This document shows, in pieces, positions 11,524 to 40,500 of a stretch of DNA of 64,000 nt; position 1 is the first letter of the stretch, and each line of letters opens with the position of its first letter. The notes beneath the pieces were generated by a model. It searched no databases, had not been told where the DNA came from, and saw only the letters and a program-made list of their open reading frames with translations. The position numbers and the translations under genes are program-made. Origin of the DNA: Gammaproteobacteria bacterium (GTDB taxonomy: Bacteria; Pseudomonadota; Gammaproteobacteria; JAJFKO01); assembly GCA_021773175.1 (NCBI GenBank), contig JAJFKO010000059.1, positions 845 through 64,844 of the forward strand, written 5' to 3'.

Positions 11524-12966
11524 TTATGTCGCTAGTGTTGGCTTAAGCTGCGTCATGAATAAAGGTAACCACTTACCATTCAGATATAACATGCCGTTAC
11601 TAAACACCATATGAGCAACATAATTTTGCTGATCTCGATGTAAATAATCCTGCTTTAATGCTCGACTCAACCAATCTTTATCTGATTGTGATAATAAATT
11701 GCTTTGCATTACATGCTTAACAAAAGCTTGTGGAGCAATAACTTTAAGTGAAGCATCTAAACTTGACACGGTATGCGCTAATAATCCTGCTAAAAATTTG
11801 AATTCAGGCAATTTATTATTAACGAACATAGGCAAGCTCCTTGGCAAATCAACAACCCCATTCATACTTAATAGACCATTTGCTGTTTGCATTTGTAAGG
11901 TTTTTAATGTGATATGCGTAGCAGCAATTGCTTGTGGTAAAATTTTTCTCGAAAAAGCATTGTTCTTTTGTTGGGACAGCTTCGACTCAGTAGAACCCGT
12001 GTGTAAGGCTTGTAAATGTTGCCAATATTGCCAGCGTTGTAATGGTGACATAGCGAGTAAAGGACTTCCCCGTAAGGCTAAATTCAATTTAATTTTTTGC
12101 ATGCAAATGTTGTCTACGCATAATTCTGTAGCCATGCCTTTAAGGTGACTAAGCACTGATTGTGCGTGCAATGTATTATTCATATTAAGTTTAATATCAT
12201 TAATAACAGCATTATGCTCGTGTTGCTGCGCAGTCAATGTCAAAATATGTAAGCTGTTATTACCTAGCCATATTCCATTTTGATTTTTGTTCGCTGTAAA
12301 CGTATTTGTAATACCGGCAGCTGAAAATAAGTCTTGATTTGCCACCTGAAATTTTAATGAGGCAATCTGATAATCACCCTTAAAACACGCTGCACGCTTT
12401 TGCAAAAATATATGGCTCTGAAAATCATTCACTAAGATTTTAACCGTCTGCTTTGCCAATCCTTGATTAATTAATAATTTTGGTACGTTAATATTAAGCT
12501 CTATGTTTTGAGCGAAGTTGATCGAACCGTTAAAATTTGCCACAGCTTTATTATCGCTAGTGACAATTTGTCCCTGAAAATAGGCCAGCCCTGCTGCAAG
12601 ATGCGTATTATTTGTTGCAGTTTGTATAAATGCCAATGGACCATTAAAAATTTTCACATTTGCCAAGAGAGTTACATGTTTTATTCCTATTGGATTGGCA
12701 TTTAATGATGTGATGTGTCGATGTTGATTATTAATTTGAATGATAAACTCTGCATTAGAGTCAAACCAATGCGACTTATACTTCGTTAAGCTTATACTGA
12801 CGCCACTATGCCCAACGGTGTAGTTAGCAAAATGGCTTTGTATTTCATGTTTAAAATAATACGCAGCAACGCCTGGAAGTATTAAAATAGTGGCAAAGAT
12901 AAGAATTAAAGCGCTAGCAAGGAAATATAATCGACGCATAATGATAAAACCTACTTTAGACAACAA
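11524..12966 (-). CDS. membrane-anchored hypothetical protein (possibly DUF945/YdgA-like)
   Basis: 480 aa with a single N-terminal TM (LYFLASALILIFATILILPGVAAYYF), then a large soluble Q/N/L-rich domain. Family assignment is by size and architecture only. Confidence 0.35.
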   Translation of the reverse strand: MLSKVGFIIMRRLYFLASALILIFATILILPGVAAYYFKHEIQSHFANYTVGHSGVSISLTKYKSHWFDSNAEFIIQINNQHRHITSLNANPIGIKHVTLLANVKIFNGPLAFIQTATNNTHLAAGLAYFQGQIVTSDNKAVANFNGSINFAQNIELNINVPKLLINQGLAKQTVKILVNDFQSHIFLQKRAACFKGDYQIASLKFQVANQDLFSAAGITNTFTANKNQNGIWLGNNSLHILTLTAQQHEHNAVINDIKLNMNNTLHAQSVLSHLKGMATELCVDNICMQKIKLNLALRGSPLLAMSPLQRWQYWQHLQALHTGSTESKLSQQKNNAFSRKILPQAIAATHITLKTLQMQTANGLLSMNGVVDLPRSLPMFVNNKLPEFKFLAGLLAHTVSSLDASLKVIAPQAFVKHVMQSNLLSQSDKDWLSRALKQDYLHRDQQNYVAHMVFSNGMLYLNGKWLPLFMTQLKPTLAT

Positions 12967-13054: not shown

Positions 13055-13834
13055 CTACTTAAAATACAAGGCCATAAGCTCTTTACTTGATTTACAACCC
13101 AGCAACTCTTTGGTTTGAGCGATAATTCCTTCCACCGTTCTATGGGAAAGACTCATATCTCGAGCGATCAATTTTGATGACTTCCCTTGTGCTAATAACG
13201 TTAAACATGTTGCTTGCTGCGTTGAAAGTTGCACAGGTGAATGCCGTGTATTATGAAAAAAGATAGAATCAGACTTTTCTCGTGTGATGGCATTGCCGTC
13301 ATCTGACAAAACGTCAACATTAAATGATTCCCGCATAGCATTCATAACAACTTGTATATGCTCATCTAAAGCATGCTTATTGCCATCTATAGTGAGAGTG
13401 CTGACGAGTTTATTTAATTCATCGCGCTCATCATGAAGATTATCGAATAATTCTTTAGTTGTTATAAATGGTAACAATGGCGCTGCGCGCCGGATATTAC
13501 GCTCCAGCTGCACACTCGTGCTAGTATCTAAAAAAACAGAAAATTCCGCTGATAGAATTTCTCTATTAATTTTTGAACAAACCATACTGGCATCAGTTAC
13601 AACGACAACATGTTCTTCTTTTATCAAATTATTTAATATTATAGTTTGACAGTGAAAGAACGAGTCTGCAGCTTCTTTACTTAAAATTTCATGTATTGGA
13701 AGGCCTATTTTACTTTCTATTCCAATATCAGCATCGATGATGCGCCAACCTAATTTCTCTCCCAATGTTTTAGCAAATAAACCTTTTCCTGCACCAGGAT
13801 GACCAATAACAAAAACTCGTTTAATCTTATTCAT
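13055..13834 (-). CDS. fusion regulator: N-terminal shikimate-kinase-like P-loop domain plus C-terminal LuxR-type HTH
   Basis: N-terminus VFVIGHPGAGKGLFAKTLGEKLGWRIIDADIGIE is a Walker A with the shikimate-kinase DxDxxIE context. C-terminus LTLLAQGKSSKLIARDMSLSHRTVEGIIAQTKELLG is a LuxR/GerE HTH. Start set at MNKIKRVF. Confidence 0.6.
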   Translation of the reverse strand: MNKIKRVFVIGHPGAGKGLFAKTLGEKLGWRIIDADIGIESKIGLPIHEILSKEAADSFFHCQTIILNNLIKEEHVVVVTDASMVCSKINREILSAEFSVFLDTSTSVQLERNIRRAAPLLPFITTKELFDNLHDERDELNKLVSTLTIDGNKHALDEHIQVVMNAMRESFNVDVLSDDGNAITREKSDSIFFHNTRHSPVQLSTQQATCLTLLAQGKSSKLIARDMSLSHRTVEGIIAQTKELLGCKSSKELMALYFK

Positions 13835-14021
13835 GTCATATCTCACTTTTAAACACTTAGATTTTAAACCTAGATTCCGCAGTTGCCATCGTAGCAAGAG
13901 CGCTTAATATACTGAATCTAAGTTAAATATAGTATCGTTGTTATTGTCGCTAAATCAATACGTAGAACTACGTTATAAATAGTGTAAATATTAAGGGGAC
14001 GTCATAAACGCCGCTTGTAAA

Positions 14022-15011
14022 TCATAGAGTAACAAAACTTTGCGCAGAAGAAACTAGCGGCACTTTATTTAAAAAGTTTTGATTAAAATCTTCAGGAAGC
14101 ATTGCATTAACATTTAAATACCAGAGATTAGGCAAGCTAAAACTCTCACACTTCACCGCATCTTTCTCTGTCATAATAATGGGTAAGTCATCTTGGAAAT
14201 TAAGGTCTTGTACTTGATAAGTATAATGATCTGGAAAATAATGAGGAATAACCGCATAACCAAGTGACTTTAATGTTTGAAAAAAGCTCTCTGGATTACC
14301 AATACCCGCTACAGCATGAACAGGCTTATCGATAAAACTTTTATTATCCATGCGCTCAGCAGCTCGCTGTACGCAGCATAGTTCGCCAGGCAGTAATTGC
14401 ATAGCATACTCACCAACAGCAGCCTCCCCTTTAACAACGACGAAATCAACATCTTGTAAACGTTGTACCGGTTCACGTAAAGGTCCTGCCGGTAAACATA
14501 ATTCATTGCCACAACGCCGTTGGCCATCAAGCACTGCAATCTCGATATCACGTTGCATAGCATAATGCTGCAAACCATCGTCGGCTAAGATAACATTACA
14601 ATTTGTTGCGCCTAATAATGCTTTGATAGCAACATTTCGTTTTGGCGCTATAACGACTGGGCAGCCACTACGTCGTGCCATTAATACAGCTTCATCACCA
14701 ACATCCGTCGCTGATGCTAGCGTATCAACAAAGTGCGGAAACGTTTTAATATTAGCTTTATAGCCACGACTGACAATGCCTGGTACAAAGCCTTGTTGTC
14801 GCAGTAACTCGGCAAGGTAAATTGTTAATGGCGTTTTACCGGTACCGCCAACACTAATATTGCCAACAACAATTATCGGTACAGGAAATGCTTGTGAGGA
14901 TAAGATATTCTTTTGATATAAAAACTTTCTCGTTGCAGCGATACCCTTATATAAACCCGACAATGGTCTTAATAACTGGGAAATCGTATTATGAGAATAC
15001 CAAAAATCCAT
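14022..15011 (-). CDS. lpxK: tetraacyldisaccharide 4'-kinase
   Basis: PVPIIVVGNISVGGTGKTP P-loop typical of LpxK. Coupled to the msbA stop. Confidence 0.85.
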   Translation of the reverse strand: MDFWYSHNTISQLLRPLSGLYKGIAATRKFLYQKNILSSQAFPVPIIVVGNISVGGTGKTPLTIYLAELLRQQGFVPGIVSRGYKANIKTFPHFVDTLASATDVGDEAVLMARRSGCPVVIAPKRNVAIKALLGATNCNVILADDGLQHYAMQRDIEIAVLDGQRRCGNELCLPAGPLREPVQRLQDVDFVVVKGEAAVGEYAMQLLPGELCCVQRAAERMDNKSFIDKPVHAVAGIGNPESFFQTLKSLGYAVIPHYFPDHYTYQVQDLNFQDDLPIIMTEKDAVKCESFSLPNLWYLNVNAMLPEDFNQNFLNKVPLVSSAQSFVTL

Positions 15012-16777
15012 TATGATACTTCACTTTCTGCTTCAGATTGTAAACTTTCATCGTGAAACTGTAGGGCATGTAATTTCGCATAGTGTCCATCTTGTTCAAG
15101 CAAGGTTGAGTGATTACCCATCTCGATAATTCTACCCTTTTCCATAACAACGATTTTATCGGCTTTTTCAATTGTTGAAAGACGATGTGCAATCACTAAG
15201 GTCGTGCGGTTTTCCATCAACGTTTCCAGTGCGGCTTGAATATGGCGCTCCGCTTCGGTATCTAATGCTGATGTTGCTTCATCTAAAATCAAAATTGGCG
15301 CATCTTTTAATAAGGCTCGGGCTATTGCTAAACGCTGACGTTGACCACCTGAAAGTAAAACGCCTTTATCGCCAACCAAAGTATCCAAGCCTTCAGGAAG
15401 TTCTTGAATAAACTCGTAAGCATGTGCCGCTTTAGCTGCCGCAATAATTTCTTCGCGAGAAACAGTCTCTAATTGTCCATAGGCAATATTCTTAGCAATA
15501 CTATCATTAAACAACACCACGTGTTGTGACACTAACGCAACTTGTTGGCGTAACGACGATAAACTAAGGTCACGAATAGTATAACCATCTATAGTGATGC
15601 ACCCTGTCTGATATTCATAAAAGCGCGGCAATAAATTAACAAGCGTACTTTTACCACTACCAGAACGTCCAACTAGTGCCACGGTTTCACCCGGTTTAAT
15701 CGTCAAGTCAATATTATGCAACACACCTTTATGACTACGCTCATATTGAAAAGAAACGTTCTCATAGATTAGCTCACCTTGAGCTCGCGGTAATATTGTT
15801 GTGCCAGTATCTTGCTCTGTCGGTTCATCTAAAACAGCAAAGATACTTTCAGCACCGGCAATACCTTTTTGTATTGTACTATTAACCGTCGTCAAATTTT
15901 TCAAAGGCTTTAACATCGCAAGCATTGATGCCGTAAAAGAAACAAAGGCTCCAGCTGAAATCCCAAAGCGTCCATCCGACGTTGCTAGATATACGGTAAT
16001 GGCAATAGCAAATGAAGCAAGAATTTGCACACTTGATGTACCAATGGAGTCTGCCACGATCACTTTCATTTCACGTTGACGATTATGCTTTGTCACCGAA
16101 TTAAACTTACCTTGCTCATAGTTTTGACCGCCAAAACTTTTCACTTCGCGGTAGCCTTCTAAGCCTTCTTGCGCAATATGGGTAATTTCGCTCATATTAT
16201 CTTGAATACCATGACTTAAACTGCGCATACGTCGACTGGTATAACTTACAATCAAAGCAATCACAGGAACGGTCAATATAAAAATAAGACTTAAACGCCA
16301 GCTATTTAAAAACATAACAACAATGAGCCCCACAATTAAGAAGCTTTCACGAATTACGCGAATAAAAGCTTTAGTGCTGGCACTTGCCACTTGCTGTACG
16401 TTAAAAATGATTACAGAGAGAAGTTCACCGCTATTACGCGTATCAAAATACGCTGCAGGTAATTTTAGGAAATGGGCAAACAATAATTGCCGAAAACGCA
16501 TGACAACATTGCGTCCTATCCATGTAATAAAGTAATTTGCAGTGAAGGAAGCAATGCCTCGAAAAACAAAGGCACCGACGATAATATAAGGCAGCCAGAA
16601 TAGGAAATGTTGATTTTTATTAATAAAACCATCGTTGAGTAATGGCTTTAAAAACCAAGTAAATGCCGCATCACTGCCAGATGACATCAGCATACCCACA
16701 ATACCAAAAATAAAGGCAGGCCAATAATCAAGAGCATAGCCCATGAGCCGCTTATAAACGCTAACACCCTGTTTCAT
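15011..16777 (-). CDS. msbA: lipid A export ABC transporter (fused permease/ATPase)
   Basis: 588 aa. Six-TM N-terminal domain, Walker A GRSGSGKST, signature LSGGQRQR, Walker B ILILDEATSALD. Confidence 0.85.
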   Translation of the reverse strand: MKQGVSVYKRLMGYALDYWPAFIFGIVGMLMSSGSDAAFTWFLKPLLNDGFINKNQHFLFWLPYIIVGAFVFRGIASFTANYFITWIGRNVVMRFRQLLFAHFLKLPAAYFDTRNSGELLSVIIFNVQQVASASTKAFIRVIRESFLIVGLIVVMFLNSWRLSLIFILTVPVIALIVSYTSRRMRSLSHGIQDNMSEITHIAQEGLEGYREVKSFGGQNYEQGKFNSVTKHNRQREMKVIVADSIGTSSVQILASFAIAITVYLATSDGRFGISAGAFVSFTASMLAMLKPLKNLTTVNSTIQKGIAGAESIFAVLDEPTEQDTGTTILPRAQGELIYENVSFQYERSHKGVLHNIDLTIKPGETVALVGRSGSGKSTLVNLLPRFYEYQTGCITIDGYTIRDLSLSSLRQQVALVSQHVVLFNDSIAKNIAYGQLETVSREEIIAAAKAAHAYEFIQELPEGLDTLVGDKGVLLSGGQRQRLAIARALLKDAPILILDEATSALDTEAERHIQAALETLMENRTTLVIAHRLSTIEKADKIVVMEKGRIIEMGNHSTLLEQDGHYAKLHALQFHDESLQSEAESEVS

Positions 16778-17009: not shown

Positions 17010-17594
17010 TCATGTAAAGGTGTTGGCTTTTCTAGCTCTTTCTGGCTGTGGAGCAGCATTGAAACTCGAAGCAGTCTGCTCTTTGCGAGAAGGTTTGAAA
17101 AGCATCGACAGTGGTGTTGCTGTAGGAATAGTATTATTCGACGCACTACTAGCGAGCTGTATAGACGATGTTTTTAGCCTGATATAATGATTGAATCTTC
17201 GTGGTTCTGACGAAAAGCCCTCGGCAGATGTACAAAGAACATCAAGTGCCTCAAAGTTTGCTCCATGACAACTTGTTCTAGCTAAGGACAACCGTCCACT
17301 CGTTTTCGTCACAAAGATTCGTAGATTCTTTCTTAAAATTAGTGCTAAAGCATCCATTACAGATGGAGATTTTTCGTTAAATGGTATCCAAACGCCAGCT
17401 TTTAAGAATGAGTGTAAGTACTTCTCCACTCTGCGTACATTACTATCAAAATGCTCCAAAGTCCGCTCATAACGAACATTATGAGCCACCTCTAAACCAT
17501 CCAGTAGCAGGTTTACAAGATCTTCCCTCTGGGTGTTACCATTGACAGCTCTCGAGAACCAACCTTGATTGCTGACGTGATAAAGCAGTCATAA
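17010..17594 (-). pseudogene. unidentified gene fragment (GTG-start ORF with in-frame upstream stop; possible degraded mobile-element gene)
   Basis: The ORF-track 159-aa ORF starts with GTG. The same frame continues upstream (…LLYHVSNQGWFSRAVNGNTQREDLVNLLLDGLEVAHNVRYER…) to a stop at about 17594. Low-complexity C-terminus. Flanked by IS remnants. Confidence 0.25.
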
Positions 17595-17796
17595 AAGTAA
17601 TTTCTTTAGCAGTCCAATCCGCATAAAAAAATGGACTGTGTCGATTCAACACTGGAAACCTGCGATGAATCACTTTATGAGCGAGTTCGAGGAGCAGCTA
17701 ACTCCTTATGTTTAGAGCGAGTACTTACACAGAATTATTTACAGGCTCATATGATCGAACCTATCTTTTAACCTCTCATTCTCAGCTTTAACAAGC

Positions 17797-18060
17797 TCAT
17801 TTCTTGCAACGTGCTTTTCCTACCATAAAAATATTAATTTGATTACCAATCTCTTCGACTTGCCCCTTAATTTCTTTGATTTTTTCAGACAGTGTTTTTA
17901 TTTGTACCATATGCCTATGAACTACTTCTCTTTTTTCATCTTCCAAATCCACTTTATTAAAACATGTAGACACTTCCAGTTGTTGTATCTCTTCTATCAT
18001 GTCTAATGTAATAGCATCTTGTAACTCTTCAAGCTGATCTTGCCCCGATTTGAAGGACAC
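17797..18060 (-). CDS. small coiled-coil hypothetical protein, probably a 5'-truncated remnant
   Basis: 87 aa, heptad-like E/K/Q-rich sequence. The ORF start abuts the IS3-family left end at about 18051. Confidence 0.3.
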   Translation of the reverse strand: MSFKSGQDQLEELQDAITLDMIEEIQQLEVSTCFNKVDLEDEKREVVHRHMVQIKTLSEKIKEIKGQVEEIGNQINIFMVGKARCKK

Positions 18061-18410
18061 CTTACCAAGAGAGTAAACTAACTTTTAGTGAGGAAATAAA
18101 ATGAACGAAACAAATTAATCTAACTCATTCAACTGTAAAATATAGTCCAGAATTTAAAGGTAGAACTTTGCTCCGAGCTAAGTCTGAAGGCGTGCCTCAA
18201 GTTGCGAAAGATCTTGGGTTATCGGAATCGATACTTTATCCGTGGCGGGCCAAACAAAGGCAATTTGGACAGCCTCATGAGCTTCAAAAATAACAACAGG
18301 CTGAATTATCCCGTCTCAAATGCGAAAATGATCGTCTTACTCAGGAAAATGCCTTTCTAAAAAAGGTCGCGCAGTACTTTGCGACGGAGCAGGCGTTTTG
18401 TGGAATATGA
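18051..18410 (+). mobile_element. IS3-family element remnant: left end plus orfA with lost ATG and internal stop; orfB absent
   Basis: Starts TGAAGGACACC (IS3/IS911-like IRL, 5'-TG). Translation gives …STVKYSPEFKGRTLLRAKSEGVPQVAKDLGLSESILYPWRAKQRQFGQPHELQK*QQAELSRLKCENDRLTQENAFLKKVAQYFATEQA. That is the HTH plus leucine-zipper OrfA of IS3-family elements. No transposase catalytic ORF follows. Confidence 0.55.
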
Positions 18411-18464
18411 TTTGCGTTGTGCAATATTGGAGGTTGGGCAGACCTAGCTTAATGGTAGATAGAT

Positions 18465-18833
18465 TCAATTGCCATAACAACTACCATTCTTCAAACATGC
18501 GCGATACCCCCCAACACATGCAGCTCTATGGTCGGAGGTTGATGAAACGTTGAAACTCCCCGAGGGGGAATTATTTTGACTCATAACCACTTGTAGTTGA
18601 GATGTACTCGAGTCGTTATTAAGTCCTGCTTTAGTGGATACATAACACCCGTAACGAAGATCAGCTTTTGCTTCGCATACGGCTGTAATGCCGGGCGAAT
18701 CGGATATTAGGGTCCAATAGCTAGCGTTCTCGCAAACCTTTGAGTTGGTTGAATTAGCGGCCTGAATGGTCGAGCCAAAGATTAAGGTTGATAAATATAG
18801 TATGGATATGAATACATTAACTTTTTTGTTCAT
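18465..18833 (-). CDS. small secreted cysteine-rich protein
   Basis: 122 aa. Signal peptide MNKKVNVFISILYLSTLIFGSTIQA, then S/N/G-rich mature part with 8 Cys (CENASY…CEAKADLRYGCYV…CVGGYRACLKNGSCYGN). Local GC visibly higher than surroundings. Confidence 0.45.
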   Translation of the reverse strand: MNKKVNVFISILYLSTLIFGSTIQAANSTNSKVCENASYWTLISDSPGITAVCEAKADLRYGCYVSTKAGLNNDSSTSQLQVVMSQNNSPSGSFNVSSTSDHRAACVGGYRACLKNGSCYGN

Positions 18834-19589
18834 AATAGTGGTCCCCTTCAGTTAATATACCTTTGTCATTGGTATGCCCCAAACACGCCAGCGGCGCACA
18901 TAACAGCAGTTTAGTATTTGTTCGATGATTGACAGCATTCGTTTGTCGTTAATGCTCCTGGTAATGATGACCTCCATCATAACAAAAATATACGCGGTAT
19001 TTAATGCAGCTTTAGAGACAATCCGCAATATTTGCTTGGTATCATGATAGTGTTTTGTCTTCGAATGTGATCGCATGCTTCACCCTGTATTACTTACCAA
19101 AATTTGCTTTATATTGCTAATAATAGTATATATCTTTGTAAATTCCATACCGATTTGATCTACCTCCTCTTTCTGAAGCCCCCTATATTATATTGAGAAG
19201 CAAGCAAATTAATAATCAAAATATTTATTAGCATTTTTATCAAGCGTCTTTACAAATACTTTCTTCAATCTATAGAATAGCTACTAACGTTCTGAACACC
19301 CTGCTCTAGGTTCATTTAATCTATATTACTGGAACCTTCTTGTTAAGCGTTCGGGTGGATTAAGTCCTTAATGCAACAGCAAGCTACCAACTATACTAAA
19401 CTTATATAAAAACTTAAATTAAGATTCTATCTGCAGCAGCAGATAATCTTGAGATAGCCACTTGAAATATTCAAGATATTCAACAGAAGCCATAGCCTCA
19501 ATACCAACTGACAGGATTAAGTTAATGTTGTCTTAATAATTACCTGCATAAACTTTTACGTATACCATAGTTTTATTAGAGTTATAGAA

Positions 19590-27944: not shown

Positions 27945-29957
27945 TTAATCATCATGTAGAAAACATTTTACTTTATGCGTATCGGTAATATTTGTTGTGT
28001 GAGGGTACGCTTGTCGACACTTCGCCATAACATGTGGGCAACGCGCCGCAAAATGACAACCTTGCGGCGGATTAAAGGGTGATGGCGGCTCACCTGTTAA
28101 TTTCATAAATTGCTGAGCTGTCTCTTGCTCAACATCTGGCACCGCAGCTAATAATGATTGGGTATAGGGATGTTTCGCTTGCGTCAAAATTTCTGTAACA
28201 CTACCCTCTTCGACAATACGCCCTAAATACATCACCGCAACGCGTTGTGCTAAATAACCAACCACAGCTAAATTATGCGTAATAAATAAATATGACAATC
28301 CCAGCTTGCGCTGTAACTCTTGGAGTAAATTTAATATTTGTGCTTGTACCGAAACATCCAAAGCACTAGTGGGCTCATCACAAATAATCAATTTAGGTTC
28401 AACGGCTAATGCTCGCGCAATACAAATACGTTGGCGTTGTCCACCTGAAAATTCATGAGGATAACGATCTAAAATATCAGTTGGCATGCCTACAGCAGAT
28501 AATAACTCTTCGATCCGAGGTATTAGCTCATTGCGTTTATGCTTAATACGATGGATACGCATGCCTTCTGCAATAATATCGGCAATCATCATACGTGGAT
28601 TCATTGAAGAAAAAGGATCTTGAAAAATAAATTGCATTTGTTGGCGTAACTCATGGCCTTGTCTTCTTGAGTTGTGTTGATAATCCTGGCCATTAAAATA
28701 AAGCTCGCCAGCAGTAGGCTTAATCAAATTTAAAATACCCTTACCAACGGTGGTTTTACCACAACCTGATTCCCCCACCAAAGCCAATGTTTCCCCTTCT
28801 TTAATCGTAAGACTAACACCATCAACCGCTTTAATATTACCAACAACACGCTGTAATAAACCTTTGCGTACAGGAAAATGCACTTTTAGACCTTTTACTT
28901 CAAGCACAGACTTGCTTATATCCTCAGTCGCTTTTAATTGACTTGATTTTGCTGTAATGGTTTCTTCGGCTTGAAAATAGTGAGCGTAACTTTTAGTAAA
29001 TCGATGACACAAAACACCATGCTTTGTTTGTGAAGTATGCCAACGTGGTGTTTGTTTATAACATATTTCTTTTGTGTATTGGCAACGACCAGCAAAACGA
29101 CAACCTGTCGCATCGGCCTGTAAAGTCGGCACGATACCAGGAATAGTAATGAGTTGTTCTTCGCGTCGATTCAAACTCGGCAATGCTTGTAATAAACGTT
29201 GACTATAAGGATGTAGCGGTTCTTTAAAAAAATCTTTTGTCGTCGCAGATTCAACAATATTACCTGCATACATTACAATTAAACGATCGGACATTGCCTT
29301 AACAACAGCAAGATCATGCGTTATTAATAAAATCGCCATACCTGTTTTGGTTTGAATTTCTTGTAATAGAGCAAGAATTTGTGCTTGAATGGTTACATCA
29401 AGAGCGGTTGTTGGCTCATCCGCAACGAGAATATCAGGCTCACCAGCTAAAGCCATGGCAATTACAATTCGTTGTTTCATACCACCAGACAATTGATGAG
29501 GGTATTCTTTATAACGCCGTTCTGCTTCTGGAATACCAACTAAGCTTAATAACTCTAGCGCGCGCTCACGTACTTTTTTTGCAGATAAAGAAAAATGTGT
29601 TCGAATCGCCTCGGCGATTTGATCACCAATGGTTAATACAGGATTAAGAGAAGTCATGGGTTCTTGGAATATTTGGCTGATACGCCGACCACGAAATTGT
29701 CGCATAGCCACTTCAGGCAATGCTAATAAATTTTGTTGATCAATAATAATCTCACTGCCATCAACAATTCGCACAGCAGGAGGCAATAACTGCATTAACG
29801 CCATTGCTGTCATGCTTTTACCACAGCCAGATTCGCCGAGTAACGCTAGAGTTTCACCTCGTTTTAAGGTAAAACCAATTTGATTAATAACAATCGCCGT
29901 ATGGTTTTGCTGCTGTATGCCAAGAGTTAAATTATTAACTTCTAATACTGCTGTCAC
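27945..29957 (-). CDS. ABC transporter ATP-binding protein with two tandem NBDs (YejF/GsiA/DppDF-like); no partner permease or SBP nearby
   Basis: 670 aa. Two sets of Walker A (GESGCGKS / GESGCGKT), signature (LSGGMKQR / FSGGQRQR) and Walker B. Cys-rich oligopeptide-ABC C-terminal extensions (CRFAGRC…C; CHFAARCPHVMAKC). Confidence 0.85.
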   Translation of the reverse strand: MTAVLEVNNLTLGIQQQNHTAIVINQIGFTLKRGETLALLGESGCGKSMTAMALMQLLPPAVRIVDGSEIIIDQQNLLALPEVAMRQFRGRRISQIFQEPMTSLNPVLTIGDQIAEAIRTHFSLSAKKVRERALELLSLVGIPEAERRYKEYPHQLSGGMKQRIVIAMALAGEPDILVADEPTTALDVTIQAQILALLQEIQTKTGMAILLITHDLAVVKAMSDRLIVMYAGNIVESATTKDFFKEPLHPYSQRLLQALPSLNRREEQLITIPGIVPTLQADATGCRFAGRCQYTKEICYKQTPRWHTSQTKHGVLCHRFTKSYAHYFQAEETITAKSSQLKATEDISKSVLEVKGLKVHFPVRKGLLQRVVGNIKAVDGVSLTIKEGETLALVGESGCGKTTVGKGILNLIKPTAGELYFNGQDYQHNSRRQGHELRQQMQFIFQDPFSSMNPRMMIADIIAEGMRIHRIKHKRNELIPRIEELLSAVGMPTDILDRYPHEFSGGQRQRICIARALAVEPKLIICDEPTSALDVSVQAQILNLLQELQRKLGLSYLFITHNLAVVGYLAQRVAVMYLGRIVEEGSVTEILTQAKHPYTQSLLAAVPDVEQETAQQFMKLTGEPPSPFNPPQGCHFAARCPHVMAKCRQAYPHTTNITDTHKVKCFLHDD

Positions 29958-34513: not shown

Positions 34514-37500
34514 TTAGAGCTTATTGATTATATCTGTAATTTCTTTTAATGCTTGGCCATGAAGGATAGTGTCATGTGTTGCGGATATTGTTTTTATTTC
34601 TAAGTGGTCAATCAATGATTTCCATCCATAATCATCATCAACTTTAAGTCTTTTAATAGGTTTTATGCTTGCTTCTTGTTTTGTTTCCTTCGAGGCTTTA
34701 ATTAATATTGTATCTCCATTATATTTTTCAGGCTTATAGTTCTGCAATAGATCTTTTGCTAATTTCCAATTATTCTTTATATGCTCTTTATATGTCTTAG
34801 GTAATAAATGCCATAGTGTGTTTATCTGTTGGATATGCTTTTCACTATATTGGTATATATCTAAACTATAATCTGTTGTTAAACAACTATCGACTAAAAG
34901 CAACTTCTTAACTGGTTGGTTTTCTTTTCGTAATTGTTGTGCCATTTCAAAAGCAATGACGCCTCCAAATCCCCAGCCTCCTAAACAATAGCTCTCAACA
35001 TGATTTGTATTTCTAATACAGCTTAAATAACGATTTGCAAGAGCTTTAATAGTTTTAATACATTGTGACGATTGAAATACAAAATCAGAATCAATGCCAT
35101 AAAAAGGAATATCTTCATTTATCGTCTTTGCTAGCTCAGCATAGACCTCTGCTCCAGAAGATATGGGGTGCACAAAATATATAGGAATTTTGCCACCAAA
35201 ATCATTATATTTTATTATAGGTTGGAACTTTGTGTTAATCTCGGCAGCACTAAATGCATGTATTTGAGAATTAATCGTAGCATGCTCAAATAACCATGCT
35301 AAATCATACTCTCTATTAAACATTTTGTTGATACACTCTAAGATTCGTATCGATAGTATTCTATTGGCACCCACCATATAGAAAGGATCTTTTGTACTAA
35401 AGTTTGAGTGGCCAAGGATTTCATACCATATCTTCGACAACTTATATTTTAAAGCAAACTCTTTATCCTTTGTTGCTGACAATGCCACTTTACTCGAAAA
35501 AGATAATTGTTGTTTTGCGGAAGAAGAAAGCAATATTTTTTGTTTATTTTGAAAGTGTTTTTTCAACTGAGAAAAGAGCGGCATTTCTATAATAGGTTTG
35601 TCTGAATAGCCGGCAAACAAACTAGACATTAAATCTTTAAGCGCCTTAAACACTGTTTTTATAGTGCCATCATTATATAAGCTATTATTATAAACCAACT
35701 GCATCGACAAACCTTCTCGATGCTCTACAAATCTAAAAACCAATTCTAGTTTAGTGATTAAATGATCGTCTTTAATTGGAGATAAAACAAAACCAGGCAT
35801 ATCGATTTCCGACTCAGTTGCAGCAAGAGTATAGTCGATAGCAACTTTATACAAAGGCAACGCACTCACACCACTGGACATTTTCAATCTCTCAAGCAAA
35901 ACTTCAAAAGGCACATCTTGATTGGCATAAGCTTCTAAACAAGTTTCTTTTACTTGACTCAATAAGTCAGAGAAAAGTAAATCTTTATTAAATTGAGCCC
36001 TAAAAGGTAAGCTATTTGCAAAAAAACCTACAATATTTCCTGTGTCAGGATAATGCCTATTTGCAACATTAGAGCCAACAACAACATCATCACTACCACT
36101 ACAAGCATATAATAATGACATTACACAGGAGAGAAAAAACATAAACGGTGTCACATTATGATTACTAACTATCTCATGTATTTTATTTTTTTCTTTGTTA
36201 TTTAACATAATTGAAAATTGACTTGCCAGAAAATTATCTTGCTTAACCTCTTTATGGTCACAAGGCACCGTAACTATATTGAAATTTTTTAATTTTTTCT
36301 GCCAATAATCAATTTGTGAATTAAAAACATTCTCAGATAGAAGTCTACGTTGCCAAAAGACAAAATCTTTATAGTGGTATTTTTGAGGGCTAAGTTCAGG
36401 CTCTTGGTTTATTATATATGCTGAATAGATCGCCTTTAATTCATTTAATATAATCTTAACAGACCAACCATCTGTGATCAGGTGATGTTGAGATATTACT
36501 AAAACATGTTTTTTGGCACTGAGGTTATAGAGTTTTAATCTAATTAATGGGCCATTTATCAAATCAAAAGGCGCATAAAAATCTTTTTTCAAGTGTTCCG
36601 GCAACTGTGCTTTTTTAACTGCAATCACATCTAATTTGAAACATTGATTTGTTACGACTTTCTGTCGAACTTGACCACCCCTTTCTATAAATACGGTATT
36701 AAAAGACTCATGCCTTGATAATATTTTGTCTAATGATTTTTCTAGTACAGCAATATTTACCTCACCATCTAGATTATAGGCATGAGGCATGTTGTAAGCT
36801 GAAAAATTCTTACCATAATACTGACTTAAAAACCAGATGCGTTCCTGAGATGTTGATAAAGAATATTCATTTTTTCTATCCTTGATAACACACATCTTAA
36901 ACTTATAACCACTTACATCAAAGAGATTGTTTCTAATATAACTTGCCATTTCATCAACTGAAGAATACTTAAAAACCAAGTTCACGGGAAAACGAATGCT
37001 AAAATGTTCTTGTATTAAAGAACATAATGTCATGGCCAATAATGAATTTCCGCCAATACAAAAAAATCCAACGCCTTTAGCTACTTTATTAATATCCAGT
37101 ACTTTACACCAAATTGTTAATACAATTTCTTCTATTTCATCATATTGGCTCGTTTCTCCGGTACCTATTTCATCCGCATTTATTTCAATAGCACTTAGAG
37201 CTTGTCTATTAATTTTTCCATTCGCTGTTAATGGAAATTGTTCTAATATCGCAACTTTAGATGGCACCATATATTCAGGTAATCTATCATGTAAGTATCG
37301 TCGTAATTCTTTACTGGTAACAGGTTGTTGCGTATTAGCTAAGACGATATACGCAATGAGTTGATTTTGGTTTTTATTCGAGGTAAGCACTTCGGCATTC
37401 TTAACTGCATCATGTTGACTAAGAGTAACTTTAATTTCATTTAGTTCAATACGGTAACCACGAACTTTCACTTGAAAGTCCACGCGTCCGATATATATAA

Positions 37501-40500
37501 CATCACCTGCATCAGACCATTTACATAAATCACCAGTCTTATATAAACGAACAGCTTGAGTGTTTGTACTAAAGGGATTAGGTATAAAAGACTGCTCGGT
37601 TAAGCTTTTATTATTTAAATATCCACGAGCGACACCCGCGCCACCAATATATAACTCCCCAATCACTCCCTCAGGTACAGGTTGTTGCATTTTATCTAAA
37701 ATATAGAGAGAAACATTCGCTAGCCCTTTACCAAGAGGTAAAGAATATTTTTGGTTATCGTCCCGCTTTAATTCATGTGTTATCGCCCCGATAGTGGCTT
37801 CTGTTGGTCCATAGTGATTGATGATGCGTAACTGAGGACTTAATGCTTGAATCTTTTTTAGTAAACATGGGCTGCTGCTTTCTCCTCCGAGTATTAATAC
37901 TTTCTTAGGCAATAAAGTAGGACCGTCATCAATACTGAGTAATCCTTCTAAATGTGACGGTGTTATTTTAAGACAATCTATATTATGAGTTCGCATATAA
38001 GTTGAGAAAGCTTGTCCATCAAGGCTATATTCATCCGTTAAAAAGTGTAAGGTTCCTGCTGACATTAGAGACATAAATAGAGTGGTATAACCTAAATCTG
38101 CCGCAAGTGTCGAGATATGAACAAAGCTTGTTTCAGAAGAGAATTCTAACCGTCGCTGTAATGCATGAGCATAATTGGTAACATTTTTATGTTCAATCAT
38201 AACTCCTTTTGGCTTACCCGTGGAGCCTGAGGTATAAACAATATAAGCAAGTTTATCTGATTGCACAGATGGTAAGGTCAGTTCTTTATATGAGCTATCT
38301 TGATGCTTGGCAATCTCAAGAATACTTATATATTCTACTTTCGTATGCTCACAAATTTCAGGTAAAGACGCAGGTTCTGCTATTAAAAATTGTGCATGAG
38401 CACTATTTAAAATATTTATCACTCGTTGTGCTGGAAATTTCAGATCAAATGGAATATAGGCAGCACCCGATTTCCAAACAGCAAGCATTGCAACAAGAAA
38501 TGCAACGGAACGTTCTAAAAGGATACCCACAAAAACTTCAGAGTCCTTATCGATGCCCAGAGCACGATGCCTGCTCATTAAATATTTAGCAAGAAGGTCA
38601 GAGCGTTTATCAAGCTCTGCATATGTGAGCTGCGACACAGCATCTACTACAGCTACCGCATCAGGGCAGGTCTGAGTATGGCTTTTCAACGATGCTAAAA
38701 GTGATACGTCCTTTATAGGTTGAGAATCGACTAGACTCCAATCATTTAAAATTAAATCATATTCTCCAGGACTTAATATCTTGTGACAAAGAATAGGTTG
38801 CTTTGGACTAGCTAGTGCTTCTTGTAGCAGCATAGCAAAATGGCCAGCCATATTAGCAATGGTTGACTCACAAAATAACGCTTTATCATAATTTATACTG
38901 CATGCTAATTTATCTTCTTTATCTATAATATCTAATGTTAAGTCAAACTTAGAAACCTTTAAACGTTGAGGATACTCTTCGACTTCGATGTCTGGTAATA
39001 ATAATTCCAATTGTTCGTCTTGTTGTTGCAAAACAAATCTCACTTGAAATAATGGCGTGCGTCGAGTATCACGAACGACCTCAAGTTCATCAACTAAATG
39101 TTCGAACGCAACATCTTGATGGCTATATGCTGCTAGACATGTTGACTTAACACGTTTTACCAACTCAATAAAATTAATATCACCAGACAAATCGCTTCGA
39201 ATCGCCAATGAGTTAATAAAGAAGCCCAGCATTGAAGCAACACTTTCTTGCTTACGGCTCGTGATCGGAGTACCAACAATAATGTCACTTTGACCACTAT
39301 ATCGTTGTAAAAGCATATTAAATGCAGCTAACATTACCATGAACAAGGTACTATCTGTCTCAGAACACAGTAATTTTACTGCCTCAACAATATTTTCATC
39401 CAATTCAAAATTATAGCTCTCACCCTCCGTTTTCTTTATTGCCGGACGAGGATAATCTGTAGGCAAATTCAATATAGGCATATTTGCTAACTGAGTTCGC
39501 CAATAATCAACTTGCTTTAATCTCTGTTCACTCGCTAAGCTTGACTGCTCCCATACCGCATAGTCAGTATATTGATATTGCAGTTCTGGGAGAGTTGGAC
39601 TCTGGTTCTTTATATACGACTGATAGGTTTCACCTAGCTCTTGAAGTAAAATTTGTAATGACCATCCATCCGTAGCAATATGATGATGATTAATTAATAA
39701 AACATAGTTTTTATCTGATAGCAGATAAAGATAAACTTTAATTATTGGCCCTGAACTGAGGTCAAAAGATTGATGAATATCTTTATGCAAAATAGCGTCG
39801 AGCGAGTTATTTTTAACATCCTTTTCAACAAACTCTATATCTACTTTTGCTTTAACAAATTGACGAGGAACACTCTTTTCCATGCCATAATGCGTTCGCA
39901 AAATATCATGCCGAGCTAATAGATAATCAAAACTTTTTTTCAACACAGCGGCATCTAACTCACCAAGCAAACGTATGACATAAGGGACATTATATGTTGA
40001 GCTAGATGAGGACTCATACGCATCTAAAAACCATAATCGCTGTTGCGCAGAAGAGAGCGGGTATGATGACGCCTTCTTTGCTTTTGTTAAAGTTGTTGTT
40101 TCATGTTGTTCTTGTGACACACTCTGATGGTCTTGAATATAACCTGATAATTCTGCGATAGTTTTATGACTAAACAGAATCGCAACGGGACAATCAATAT
40201 TAAAGTTTTTCTGTATTTTTAATGATAATTGTATTGCTAAAAGAGAATGTCCACCTAGTCTAAAAAAGTCATCATAAACACCAATTTTTTCAACAGTTAA
40301 AATATTTTGCCATAACTCTGTTAAGGTCTGCTCGGTTTTATTACGAGGTGCGGTATATTTTGCTTTAGATAATTTCCCCTTGTTTATTTCAGGTAGCGCT
40401 TTGTGATCTACCTTGCCATTAGCTGTAAGTGGTAAACTCTGCATTTTTATAATGACAGTAGGAATCATATGCTCAGGTAATCGCTCAGCTAACCATACTA

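What the first reader, a model, noticed from the sequence alone, without database searches (positions are those of the whole stretch)
13055..13834. Shikimate-kinase-like P-loop domain fused to a LuxR-type DNA-binding domain
The N-terminal about 170 residues have the shikimate kinase / NMP-kinase fold signature (GHPGAGKG…IIDADIGIE). The C-terminal about 60 residues are a canonical LuxR/GerE HTH. There is no receiver or autoinducer-binding domain.

This architecture implies a transcription factor whose activity is gated by nucleotide or shikimate-like ligand binding, or by phosphotransfer, rather than by phosphorylation or an AHL.

It sits between lpxK-msbA and a large membrane-anchored protein, on the same strand as both. 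A periplasmic chorismate-mutase-like gene occurs 14 kb away, a possible link to aromatic metabolism, but this is weak.
Basis: partly seen in the sequence, partly recalled or inferred. Interest (0 to 1): 0.55.

Follow-up and report, generated by a model that had tools for sequence, protein, structure and literature searches.

The report
Shikimate-kinase-like sensor fused to LuxR regulator
This gene encodes a small transcription factor whose sensor half is a former shikimate kinase that has lost its shikimate-binding residues; it belongs to an unstudied Legionella-group family that carries a conserved DNA palindrome at its own promoter, so it most likely controls its own expression in response to a still unknown small molecule.

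Summary
A 259-aa ORF on the minus strand (13055-13834) has a shikimate kinase (SK) fold domain (Pfam SKI, E=2.5e-20) joined to a GerE/LuxR HTH (E=1.6e-9). It has no receiver or autoinducer domain.

It is very unlikely to be a shikimate kinase. Across 62 relatives the P-loop Lys, D34, R110 and R136 (M. tuberculosis SK numbering) are kept. The Walker A Ser/Thr, R58, the GGG shikimate loop and lid R117 are replaced.

The family is small: about 17 clusters at 50% identity among 1.84 billion representatives. It is confined to Legionellaceae and Coxiellaceae and their conjugative plasmids (plpp0115), where it is annotated "shikimate kinase". The literature searched mentions it once, in passing.

New here is a palindrome, ACGTA-N4-TACGT, that abuts the -35 of the gene's own promoter.
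- It is exact in 27 of 51 loci and near-exact in most others.
- It is found nowhere else in 645 kb.
- It occurs once in the window (13960-13973; 0.04 expected) and once on the 132-kb plasmid pLPP.
- It is absent from 20 stand-alone SK-like loci.

Best reading: an autoregulated one-component regulator with an enzyme-derived sensor, analogous to BzdR. The ligand and the sign of regulation are unknown. The proposed link to chorismate mutase is unsupported.

The parts
13055..13834 (-). Complete ORF of the SK-like/LuxR regulator (259 aa plus TAG stop)
   Evidence: the start is supported by the aligned N-termini of 60 homologues
13325..13822 (-). Shikimate-kinase-fold domain (residues about 5-170), with a complete five-stranded core and lid
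   Evidence: Pfam SKI E=2.5e-20; the family profile matches PDB SKs at 2.6e-31; AF2 pLDDT >90; Foldseek target-normalised TM 0.75-0.79 to SKs
13781..13804 (-). P-loop GHPGAGKG (residues 11-18). Lys17 is invariant; the Ser/Thr that follows it in kinases is Gly here (Ala/Gly in 59/62 relatives)
   Evidence: sequence read directly; residue table
13586..13594 (-). D81-A82-S83, which replaces the G79-G80-G81 shikimate-binding loop of SK
   Evidence: Asp in 61/62 fused and 13/13 stand-alone relatives; Gly in 7/7 canonical SKs
13277..13324 (-). Variable, low-confidence interdomain linker (residues 171-186)
   Evidence: pLDDT 57-62 and a segment below 50 at residues 177-180; poorly conserved columns
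13229..13276 (-). Conserved pre-HTH element (residues 187-202, family consensus KDLxLFHKxxHxPVxLS; F193 and H194 nearly invariant), predicted as a short helix plus two short strands
13058..13231 (-). GerE/LuxR-type helix-turn-helix DNA-binding domain (residues 202-259), with recognition-helix motif SHRTVEG
   Evidence: Pfam GerE E=1.6e-9; profile hits to GerE, EvgA, NarL and FixJ structures
13960..13973 (.). Candidate operator: the perfect palindrome ACGTAGAACTACGT (ACGTA-N4-TACGT), centred 132 bp upstream of the ATG
   Evidence: the only match in the 64-kb window, 0.04 expected; the same element lies upstream of relatives in 27/51 loci exactly and in most others at 8-9 of 10 positions; footprint identity 0.81 against 0.32 in the flanks
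13953..13958 (-). Predicted -35 hexamer TTGATT, 1 nt downstream of the palindrome
   Evidence: the same offset and the hexamer TTGAT(G/T) occur in 31/39 distinct upstream regions; inferred, not tested
13929..13934 (-). Predicted -10 hexamer TACTAT (18-nt spacer), giving a leader of about 90 nt
   Evidence: relatives carry TATAAT or TATACT at 17-18 nt; the window's version is weaker (4/6); inferred

Best explanation
The gene encodes a one-component transcription factor of an uncharacterised family specific to Legionellales. Its N-terminal domain descends from shikimate kinase but is no longer a shikimate kinase. The domain keeps the phosphate-binding P-loop and the mobile lid architecture, and has remodelled the substrate pocket with new invariant residues W30, D81, H134, D138 and H159. 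It most likely serves as the sensor for a phosphate-bearing small ligand that is not shikimate. Ligand-driven closure of the kinase fold would be passed through the linker and the conserved pre-HTH element to the C-terminal LuxR-type HTH. The HTH would bind as a dimer to the 14-bp palindrome ACGTA-N4-TACGT that abuts the -35 hexamer of the gene's own promoter. The protein therefore autoregulates, and on Legionella plasmids it probably also controls the divergent GNAT/APH phosphotransferase operon. Shown here: the architecture, the fold, the residue losses, the family distribution, and the conservation and specificity of the operator. Inferred: binding to the operator, ligand sensing, and loss of catalysis. 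Unknown: the ligand and whether regulation is positive or negative.
For: Architecture and fold. Residue map onto M. tuberculosis SK: K15 62/62, D34 61/62, R110 62/62 and R136 59/62 are kept; S16 is Ala/Gly in 59/62, R58 is Arg in 0/62, G79 is Asp in 61/62, and R117 is not Arg. SK activity needs Mg2+ held by one Thr and two Asp, and loss of catalysis was necessary for an SK domain to act as a sensor in BzdR chimeras (PMC3602430). An invariant P-loop implies that phosphate binding is still under selection. Operator: it is exact in 27/51 full-length loci, once per locus, always 68-132 bp upstream of the start codon, and all 27 hits in 645 kb are at that place. Another 11 loci match 9/10 positions, against a background of 0.012 per 250 bp. 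It occurs once in the window, with 0.04 expected, and once in the complete 131,885-bp plasmid pLPP, 70 bp upstream of plpp0115. None of 20 stand-alone SK-like loci that lack the HTH has it, but frameshifted or fragmentary fused copies do. The spacing to -35 and -10 is fixed in 31/39 distinct regions. Footprint identity is 0.81 in the palindrome against 0.32 in the flanks. Proteins with RTVEG in the recognition helix go with ACGTA arms, and RTVED variants go with C[AC]GTA arms. LuxR-type solos with N-terminal sensor domains that act locally through inverted repeats are established in Legionella (LexR1, RegK3; PMC13555631).
Against: There is no experimental data for any family member. The Walker A substitution alone does not prove loss of catalysis: adenylate kinases also have Gly after the P-loop Lys (my own knowledge), and D34/D36, R112 and R137 are retained. 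Binding of this protein to the palindrome is inferred from co-occurrence only. The covariation evidence rests on 2-3 independent lineages. In the window the -10 is weak and the leader unusually long, so this copy's promoter assignment is less secure than in relatives. Many of the 27 exact sites come from closely related plasmid-type loci, although 30 regions remain after filtering at below 80% identity.
Confidence: 0.6

Rival explanations
1. A bifunctional protein: the N-domain is still an active small-molecule kinase with a new, non-shikimate substrate, and catalysis or substrate occupancy is coupled to DNA binding. This would resemble the engineered Q1 chimera of BzdR.
For: The P-loop Lys, both Asp of the DxD motif, R110 and R136 are retained and nearly invariant. 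A complete lid is predicted. SK-fold kinases with other substrates exist, for example the homoserine kinase model NF040667, which scores 60 bits. The plasmid paralogues sit among small-molecule phosphotransferases.
Against: The Mg2+-binding Ser/Thr is replaced in 59/62 and lid R117 is lost. In the BzdR work an active kinase domain made a poor sensor, because the loaded conformation is too short-lived. No curated kinase model reaches its cut-off.
Confidence: 0.2
2. A genuine shikimate kinase fused to a regulator, giving feedback control of aromatic amino-acid synthesis. This is the current database annotation and part of the first reader's idea.
For: The Pfam SKI hit is above threshold. PGAP and JGI name relatives 'shikimate kinase'. 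A secreted chorismate mutase gene lies 13.7 kb away.
Against: R58, GGG, R117 and the Walker A Ser/Thr are lost family-wide. AroK/AroL equivalogs score 57-65 bits against cut-offs of 161-195. L. pneumophila has a separate aroK, lpg0932 (PMC5928044), while the fusion is carried on accessory plasmids. No aromatic-pathway neighbours recur in 51 loci.
Confidence: 0.04
3. A pure adenine-nucleotide (ATP/ADP) switch: a miniature analogue of the large ATP-binding LuxR-family (LAL/MalT) regulators, reporting energy state rather than a specific metabolite.
For: The P-loop and R110 are invariant. The combination of a P-loop domain with a LuxR HTH is known from MalT/LAL regulators (my own knowledge).
Against: The former shikimate pocket is remodelled with new invariant residues (D81, H134, D138, H159, W30) rather than left to decay. 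That argues a second, specific ligand site is under selection. The adenine-loop Pro155 equivalent is Leu.
Confidence: 0.15
4. The palindrome is bound by some other factor, or is a promoter UP-like element, and the SK-LuxR protein regulates distant targets instead.
For: No binding data exist. Only 12-kb loci, one plasmid and this window could be scanned, so chromosomal sites elsewhere are not excluded.
Against: The element is strictly tied to genes that encode the HTH domain (0/20 stand-alone loci). It occurs in unrelated genomic contexts and on plasmids. Its arms change where the recognition helix changes.
Confidence: 0.12

Closest known systems
BzdR / BoxR (Azoarcus sp. CIB) benzoyl-CoA-responsive repressors
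   Same: A one-component regulator whose effector-binding domain is a shikimate-kinase-derived P-loop domain without SK activity. Ligand-induced conformational change is passed through a linker to a dimeric HTH (PMC3602430). That paper names the Legionella plasmid homologue plpp0115 as carrying 'a similar SK domain'.
   Different: BzdR has an N-terminal XRE-type HTH and a C-terminal SK-like domain. Here the order is reversed and the HTH is GerE/LuxR-type. The BzdR-type model PRK08154 scores only 36 bits (cut-off 204), while AroK scores 65 bits, which suggests an independent recruitment of an SK domain. BzdR keeps a full Walker A; this family replaces its Ser/Thr. The ligand here is unknown, and no benzoate-catabolism genes are nearby.
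Shikimate kinase AroK/AroL (EC 2.7.1.71)
   Same: The same fold, P-loop Lys, DxD motif, R110 and R136. It is the best sequence and structure match.
   Different: The family lacks the Walker A Ser/Thr, R58, the GGG loop and lid R117. It has family-specific invariant residues W30, D81, H134, D138 and H159, and an appended DNA-binding domain.
Legionella LuxR-type 'solo' local regulators (LexR1/lpg2524, RegK3/lpg2557)
   Same: A C-terminal LuxR HTH with a non-receiver N-terminal sensor domain. Patchy, HGT-prone distribution in the genus, sometimes with two paralogues per genome. They act through a conserved inverted repeat at a fixed distance from the -10 of nearby genes, and LexR1 is ligand-activated (casamino acids) (PMC13555631).
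   Different: A different sensor domain: PAS in RegK3 and none recognisable in LexR1. The LexR1 operator is different, with GTC and GAC in its arms. The SK-LuxR type is not among the five LuxR-type regulators listed for strain Philadelphia-1. No effector genes are demonstrably linked.
MalT / LAL (large ATP-binding regulators of the LuxR family)
   Same: An N-terminal P-loop nucleotide-binding module combined with a C-terminal LuxR HTH, with nucleotide plus small-molecule control (my own knowledge).
   Different: LAL proteins are STAND ATPases of about 900 aa with sensor repeats. This protein is 259 aa with an NMP-kinase-class fold, and no homology beyond the P-loop and the HTH was detected.
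Stand-alone SK-like proteins of Legionellales (for example P0079-P0095, about 170 aa)
   Same: The closest relatives of the N-domain: 190-260 bits against the family profile, compared with 125 bits or less for canonical SKs. They share the substitutions K-[AG], D81, H134 and H159.
   Different: They have no HTH domain and no operator. Several keep lid R117, and several lie beside ABC exporters.

Membership tests
Shikimate kinase (AroK/AroL) | SK / NMP-kinase-like alpha-beta fold with a lid | tested here: met
   AF2 pLDDT 92.3; Foldseek target-normalised TM 0.75-0.79 to 4y0a, 2iyx and 1kag; Pfam SKI 73.7 bits against 22.1
Shikimate kinase (AroK/AroL) | Walker A GxxGxGK[S/T], with the Ser/Thr ligating Mg2+ | tested here: not met
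   The window has GHPGAGKG. The family has Ala 34, Gly 25, Thr 2 and Ser 1 of 62. The Lys itself is invariant.
Shikimate kinase (AroK/AroL) | Shikimate-binding residues R58, G79-G80-G81 and R136, plus D34 (MtSK numbering) | tested here: not met
   R58 is F in the window and Arg in 0/62. GGG is D-A-S, with Asp in 61/62. D34 and R136 are kept.
Shikimate kinase (AroK/AroL) | Lid arginine R117 (RPLL motif) | tested here: not met
   The window has A118. None of the six commonest residues at this position among the 62 fused proteins is Arg, whereas canonical SKs have Arg in 7/7.
Shikimate kinase (AroK/AroL) | Score above NCBIfam equivalog cut-offs | tested here: not met
   AroK 65.1 against 195; AroL 57.2 against 161
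Shikimate kinase (AroK/AroL) | Shikimate-dependent ATP turnover | not testable with these tools
   This needs an enzyme assay or aroK/aroL complementation.
GerE/LuxR-type HTH DNA-binding domain (PF00196) | A C-terminal four-helix HTH domain matching PF00196 above threshold | tested here: met
   37.7 bits against 23.5, residues 202-254; profile hits to GerE 1fse, EvgA, NarL and FixJ; four helices predicted at 205-258
LuxR-type quorum-sensing receptors | N-terminal autoinducer (AHL)-binding domain | tested here: not met
   No Autoind_bind hit at E<=1; the N-terminus has the SK fold.
NarL/FixJ response regulators | N-terminal receiver domain with a phospho-acceptor Asp | tested here: not met
   No Response_reg hit. 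The NCBIfam response-regulator models match only the HTH, residues about 190-255.
BzdR/BoxR subfamily | N-terminal XRE HTH plus C-terminal SK-like benzoyl-CoA-binding domain | tested here: not met
   The domain order is reversed and the HTH is GerE-type. PRK08154 scores 36.3 bits against a cut-off of 204.
BzdR/BoxR subfamily | SK-derived domain devoid of SK activity that binds the effector | not testable with these tools
   The residue losses predict no SK activity. Effector binding is untested.
SK-like/LuxR fusion family of Legionellales (plpp0115-like; uncharacterised) | SKI plus GerE architecture of about 250-260 aa, with signature residues W30, D81, H134, D138 and H159 and the pre-HTH motif | tested here: met
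   The window protein is 38-52% identical over its full length to 59 family clusters and has all the invariant residues.
SK-like/LuxR fusion family of Legionellales (plpp0115-like; uncharacterised) | ACGTA-N4-TACGT palindrome abutting the -35 of its own promoter | tested here: met
   13960-13973, followed by TTGATT one nucleotide later

The most novel reading that the evidence does not exclude
The family is a new class of small one-component sensors, in which a pseudo-kinase derived from shikimate kinase detects a specific phosphate-bearing or cationic xenobiotic or metabolite. On the large conjugative Legionella plasmids it would switch on the divergent GNAT/aminoglycoside-phosphotransferase operon, making it a dedicated, mobile antibiotic- or toxin-sensing module. 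The chromosomal copy in this window would then be a domesticated, purely autoregulated relative whose signal feeds into envelope functions (the lpxK-msbA / DUF945 neighbourhood).
Probability: 0.15. Interest if true: 0.7.

Novelty: new variant of a known kind. Interest (0 to 1): 0.45.

Why it matters
Regulators built from retired enzymes are a textbook idea with few worked examples, and BzdR is the only studied regulator with an SK-derived sensor. This family appears to be a second, independent recruitment of the same enzyme fold, joined to a different DNA-binding domain. It is compact (259 aa) and now comes with a precisely predicted operator and promoter, so it can be tested directly by EMSA, reporter fusions and ligand screens. 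It is spread through Legionella species, including L. pneumophila, L. longbeachae and L. anisa, on conjugative plasmids rich in drug-modifying enzymes. In all of these records it is mis-annotated as 'shikimate kinase', which could mislead metabolic reconstructions. In practical terms, the annotation should read 'LuxR-family transcriptional regulator with SK-like sensor domain'.

Tried and rejected
1. Conserved synteny. tblastn of the window's LpxK, MsbA, DUF945, Maf, PlsX and FabD against 81 related loci found no shared neighbours. Functional linkage to lpxK/msbA/DUF945 is therefore unsupported.
2. Neighbour clustering. No universal partner emerged. The most frequent (17/51 loci) is a divergent GNAT/APH plus APH pair. 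Other contexts include uracil-DNA glycosylase-like and PHA-synthase-like genes.
3. Empty-site test for insertion. LpxK's nearest relatives are only 50-57% identical, so there is no close genome to compare.
4. The look-up of encoding contigs for the exact protein found no record. The listing of cluster members gave no accession or name. The host organism therefore remains an unnamed low-GC (36.9%) gammaproteobacterium.
5. The repeat finder reported no inverted repeat in the intergenic regions, because the 6-bp arms fall below its length threshold. The palindrome was found only by comparing the upstream regions of homologues.
6. The generic promoter scan did not list the promoter proposed here (8/12 match) and found no terminator between this gene and DUF945.
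7. A second aroK in the window: none.
8. The LexR1 operator (GTC/GAC arms) is unrelated. LexR1 (lpg2524) and lpg1448 are described as lacking recognisable N-terminal domains, so they are not this family.
9. The searches for 'LpnR1/2/3' and for 'shikimate kinase-like' regulators found nothing relevant.
11. Other operator-like sites in the window: none better than 3 mismatches, which is the chance level.
Full report
**1. What is in the sequence**

The coordinates hold a 780-nt ORF on the minus strand (13834 down to 13055; ATG start, TAG stop; 259 aa). A longer TTG-initiated frame reaching 13897 is listed mechanically. All aligned homologues, however, begin at the same Met (consensus MxxxKRIFIxGHPGAGK), so the ATG is the start and the P-loop (residues 11-18) lies inside the protein.

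Pfam gives two domains above their curated thresholds:
- SKI (PF01202), residues 13-166, E=2.5e-20.
- GerE (PF00196), residues 202-254, E=1.6e-9.
- No receiver or autoinducer-binding domain appears, even at E<=1.

An AlphaFold2 model built on a 60-sequence family alignment is confident (mean pLDDT 92.3, pTM 0.72). The exception is a linker at residues 171-186. The model's best matches among solved structures are shikimate kinases from A. baumannii, M. tuberculosis, E. coli and C. burnetii, with target-normalised TM-scores of 0.75-0.79.

- msbA, 15011-16777.
- lpxK, 14022-15011.
- this gene.
- a 480-aa DUF945 membrane-anchored protein, 11524-12966.

The chorismate mutase gene also exists (27541-27918; CM_2 E=6.2e-16; signal-peptide-like N-terminus).

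**2. It is not a shikimate kinase**

I built a family profile and aligned it to M. tuberculosis and E. coli SK. I then tabulated 62 fused relatives, 13 stand-alone relatives and 7 canonical SKs.

Residues that are kept:
- P-loop Lys (K15 in MtSK; K17 here), 62/62.
- D34, 61/62.
- D32: Asp in 50, Asn in 11.
- R110, 62/62.
- R136, 59/62.

Residues that are lost:
- Walker A Ser/Thr (S16) is Ala or Gly in 59/62. The window has Gly18.
- R58 is never Arg. The window has Phe60.
- The G79-G80-G81 shikimate loop is D-[A/G/V]-S, with Asp in 61/62. The window has D81-A82-S83.
- Lid R117 is not Arg. The window has Ala118.

Curated AroK and AroL equivalog models score 65 and 57 bits against cut-offs of 195 and 161.

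The BzdR literature states that SK activity strictly needs Mg2+ held by one Thr and two Asp. It also states that abolishing catalysis was what turned an SK domain into a usable sensor (PMC3602430).

The former substrate pocket has not simply decayed. It has acquired new invariant residues: W30, D81, H134 and D138 at 61-62/62, and H159 at 56/62. The invariant P-loop implies that phosphate binding is still under selection.

One caution from my own knowledge: adenylate kinases also have Gly after the P-loop Lys. Loss of catalysis is therefore likely but not proven.

**3. The family**

A word-indexed search of 5.8 billion proteins found 62 clusters.
- 59 of them are full-length relatives with the same two domains, at 38-52% identity.
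- Every named one is a Legionella species and is labelled 'shikimate kinase'.

An exhaustive profile search of 1.84 billion representatives at 50% identity showed three tiers:
- About 17 full-length two-domain representatives.
- A tier of stand-alone proteins of about 170 aa, scoring 190-260 bits.
- Canonical SKs, at 125 bits or less.

The stand-alone proteins share the diagnostic substitutions. A distinct SK-like clade therefore exists in Legionellales, and part of it acquired the LuxR HTH.

A scan of GTDB species representatives found the fused gene in many Legionella and Fluoribacter species and in Legionellaceae and Coxiellaceae MAGs. Several genomes carry two copies, including L. steelei, L. 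drancourtii, L. parisiensis, L. anisa, L. santicrucis and F. gormanii.

The gene is also on the 130-150-kb conjugative plasmids of L. pneumophila, L. longbeachae, L. anisa, L. sainthelensi and L. hackeliae. On pLPP of strain Paris it is plpp0115. There it sits inside a cargo region full of GNAT acetyltransferases, aminoglycoside/choline-kinase-type phosphotransferases, nucleotidyltransferases and a beta-lactamase.

The window's host is not a close relative of any sequenced genome. Its LpxK is at most 57% identical to anything in the database, and the nearest named hits are Methylococcaceae and unnamed Gammaproteobacteria. The gene's GC content (36.7%) matches the window's (36.9%).

No related locus shares the window's neighbours. 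Neither lpxK/msbA/DUF945 nor the chorismate mutase can therefore be linked to the gene by conservation.

**4. A conserved operator (new)**

I compared the 250 bp upstream of the 51 full-length loci. This revealed a palindrome, ACGTA-N4-TACGT, with consensus cACGTAGTTCTACGTATTGAT in gene orientation.

- *Specificity in the loci.* The exact pattern occurs 27 times in 645 kb of loci plus window. It occurs once per locus, and every occurrence is centred 68-132 bp upstream of the regulator's start codon.
- *Near-matches.* Of the 24 loci without an exact match, 11 have a 9/10 match at the same place, against a background of 0.012 per 250 bp. Most of the rest have an 8/10 match.
- *The window.* The pattern occurs once, at 13960-13973, in the lpxK to regulator intergenic region. 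Chance expectation is 0.04, and 4 of 100 shuffles had a match. No other site in the window comes within 3 mismatches of the full consensus above the chance level.
- *pLPP.* The complete 131,885-bp plasmid has a single exact site, 70 bp upstream of plpp0115, in the region shared with the divergent GNAT/APH operon.
- *Link to the HTH.* None of 20 loci that encode only the stand-alone SK-like protein has the element. A frameshifted fused copy (L051) and a fragment (L071) do.
- *Promoter layout.* In 31 of 39 distinct upstream regions the palindrome is followed after 1 nt by TTGAT(G/T), and 17-18 nt later by TATAAT or TATACT. The operator thus abuts the -35 of a near-consensus sigma-70 promoter, centred at about -44.
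- *The window's promoter.* The window has TTGATT (13953-13958) and, 18 nt on, TACTAT (13929-13934). This is a weaker -10 and implies a leader of about 90 nt.
- *Phylogenetic footprint.* Among 30 upstream regions that are less than 80% identical to one another, mean pairwise identity is 0.81 in the palindrome and 0.63 in the -35. It is 0.32-0.37 in the flanks and spacer.
- *Covariation.* Proteins with RTVEG in the recognition helix go with ACGTA arms. The few with RTVED(Y) have C[A/C]GTA arms, and the RTVEDH proteins have no recognisable site. This is suggestive only, since it rests on 2-3 lineages.

**5. Mechanism**

The most economical reading is a one-component regulator. The SK-derived domain binds a phosphate-bearing ligand other than shikimate. 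The closure movement typical of this fold is relayed through the linker and a conserved pre-HTH element (residues 187-202; F193 and H194 nearly invariant) to the LuxR HTH. The HTH binds as a dimer to the palindrome at its own promoter.

On plasmids the same site probably also serves the divergent phosphotransferase operon. PGAP's start for that CDS overlaps the operator and is probably too far upstream.

The sign of regulation cannot be decided from sequence. A site centred near -44 fits class II activation, as at lux boxes (my own knowledge). But the adjacent -35 and -10 are already close to consensus, which fits repression.

The Asp and His residues newly fixed in the pocket, and the plasmid neighbours, hint at a cationic or xenobiotic ligand. 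This is speculation.

**6. Comparison with what is known**

- *BzdR/BoxR* is the closest functional precedent: an XRE HTH plus an SK-like domain that senses benzoyl-CoA and has no SK activity. Here the domain order and the HTH class differ. The N-domain scores higher against AroK (65 bits) than against the BzdR-type model (36 bits), which suggests an independent recruitment. The BzdR paper mentions plpp0115 in one sentence. That is the only mention found in 8 million full texts.
- *Legionella LuxR solos* (LexR1, RegK3) are analogous: patchily distributed, ligand-responsive local regulators acting through inverted repeats. They have other sensor domains and another operator. The SK type is not among the five LuxR-type proteins listed for strain Philadelphia-1.
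- *MalT/LAL* regulators also combine a P-loop module with a LuxR HTH, but they are large STAND ATPases (my own knowledge).

**7. Verdict**

It is wrong in its particulars (shikimate, and the link to aromatic metabolism).

The thing is a member of an uncharacterised, mis-annotated family restricted to Legionellales, and a new variant of the 'retired enzyme as sensor' theme. The operator and promoter prediction make it directly testable.

Interest is moderate, at 0.45. A specialist would not be greatly surprised given BzdR. But nothing is known experimentally, and the plasmid-borne paralogues beside drug-modifying enzymes could be biologically important.

Noticed in passing
loci L052-L070 and L079 (for example L053 6001-6504, L059 3931-4443, L065 4060-4563): A clade of stand-alone SK-like proteins of about 170 aa in Legionellaceae and related MAGs shares the pseudo-kinase substitutions (K-[A/G], G79 to D, H134, H159). 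These proteins have no HTH and no operator. In at least seven loci an MsbA-like ABC exporter gene lies within a few kb.
   Followed up: partly
L081 / NC_006365.1 109545-111149 (pLPP): The PGAP-annotated start of the divergent bifunctional GNAT/APH gene lies upstream of the operator (109555-109568), so the annotated CDS overlaps the site. The true start is probably further in (near MSKYSMPNYL), which would leave a larger shared control region.
   Followed up: partly
public annotations of relatives: All named family members, including those on L. pneumophila, L. longbeachae, L. anisa and L. sainthelensi plasmids, are annotated 'shikimate kinase'. One frameshifted copy (NZ_CP011106.1) is split into 'shikimate kinase' and 'helix-turn-helix transcriptional regulator'. 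This is a systematic misnomer.
   Followed up: yes
window 34514-49810 (-) and 60296-63988 (-): There is a very large non-ribosomal peptide synthetase ORF of 5098 aa (A, PCP, C and TE domains). A second NRPS ORF (C-A-PCP-TE) is listed as 60296-63988 by my own ORF extraction, close to the window's end at 64000.
   Followed up: partly
window 50464-51795, 52070-53443, 53623-54996 (+): Three tandem paralogous ORFs of 443-457 aa have similar N-termini (…FPSGK.L..NS..SIF…) and no Pfam match at E<=1e-5. They lie immediately next to the NRPS.
   Followed up: no
window 27541-27918 (-): A small (125 aa) chorismate mutase type II with a signal-peptide-like N-terminus, that is, a secreted or periplasmic CM. 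It lies next to an oligopeptide-type double ABC ATPase (27945-29957).
   Followed up: partly
window 20349-21158 (-) and 21314-23662 (-): An ORF with IS30-like HTH_38/HTH_23 domains (possibly a transposase) lies next to comEC. Several small ORFs with no Pfam match (17010-20246) lie between msbA and this region, which may be a variable segment.
   Followed up: no
window as a whole: The host appears to be a deep-branching, low-GC (36.9%) gammaproteobacterium. Its LpxK is at most 57% identical to any protein among 5.8 billion. The best large-contig hit is on the same MAG contig (CAWFAS010000003.1) that carries a stand-alone SK-like gene (L079).
   Followed up: partly
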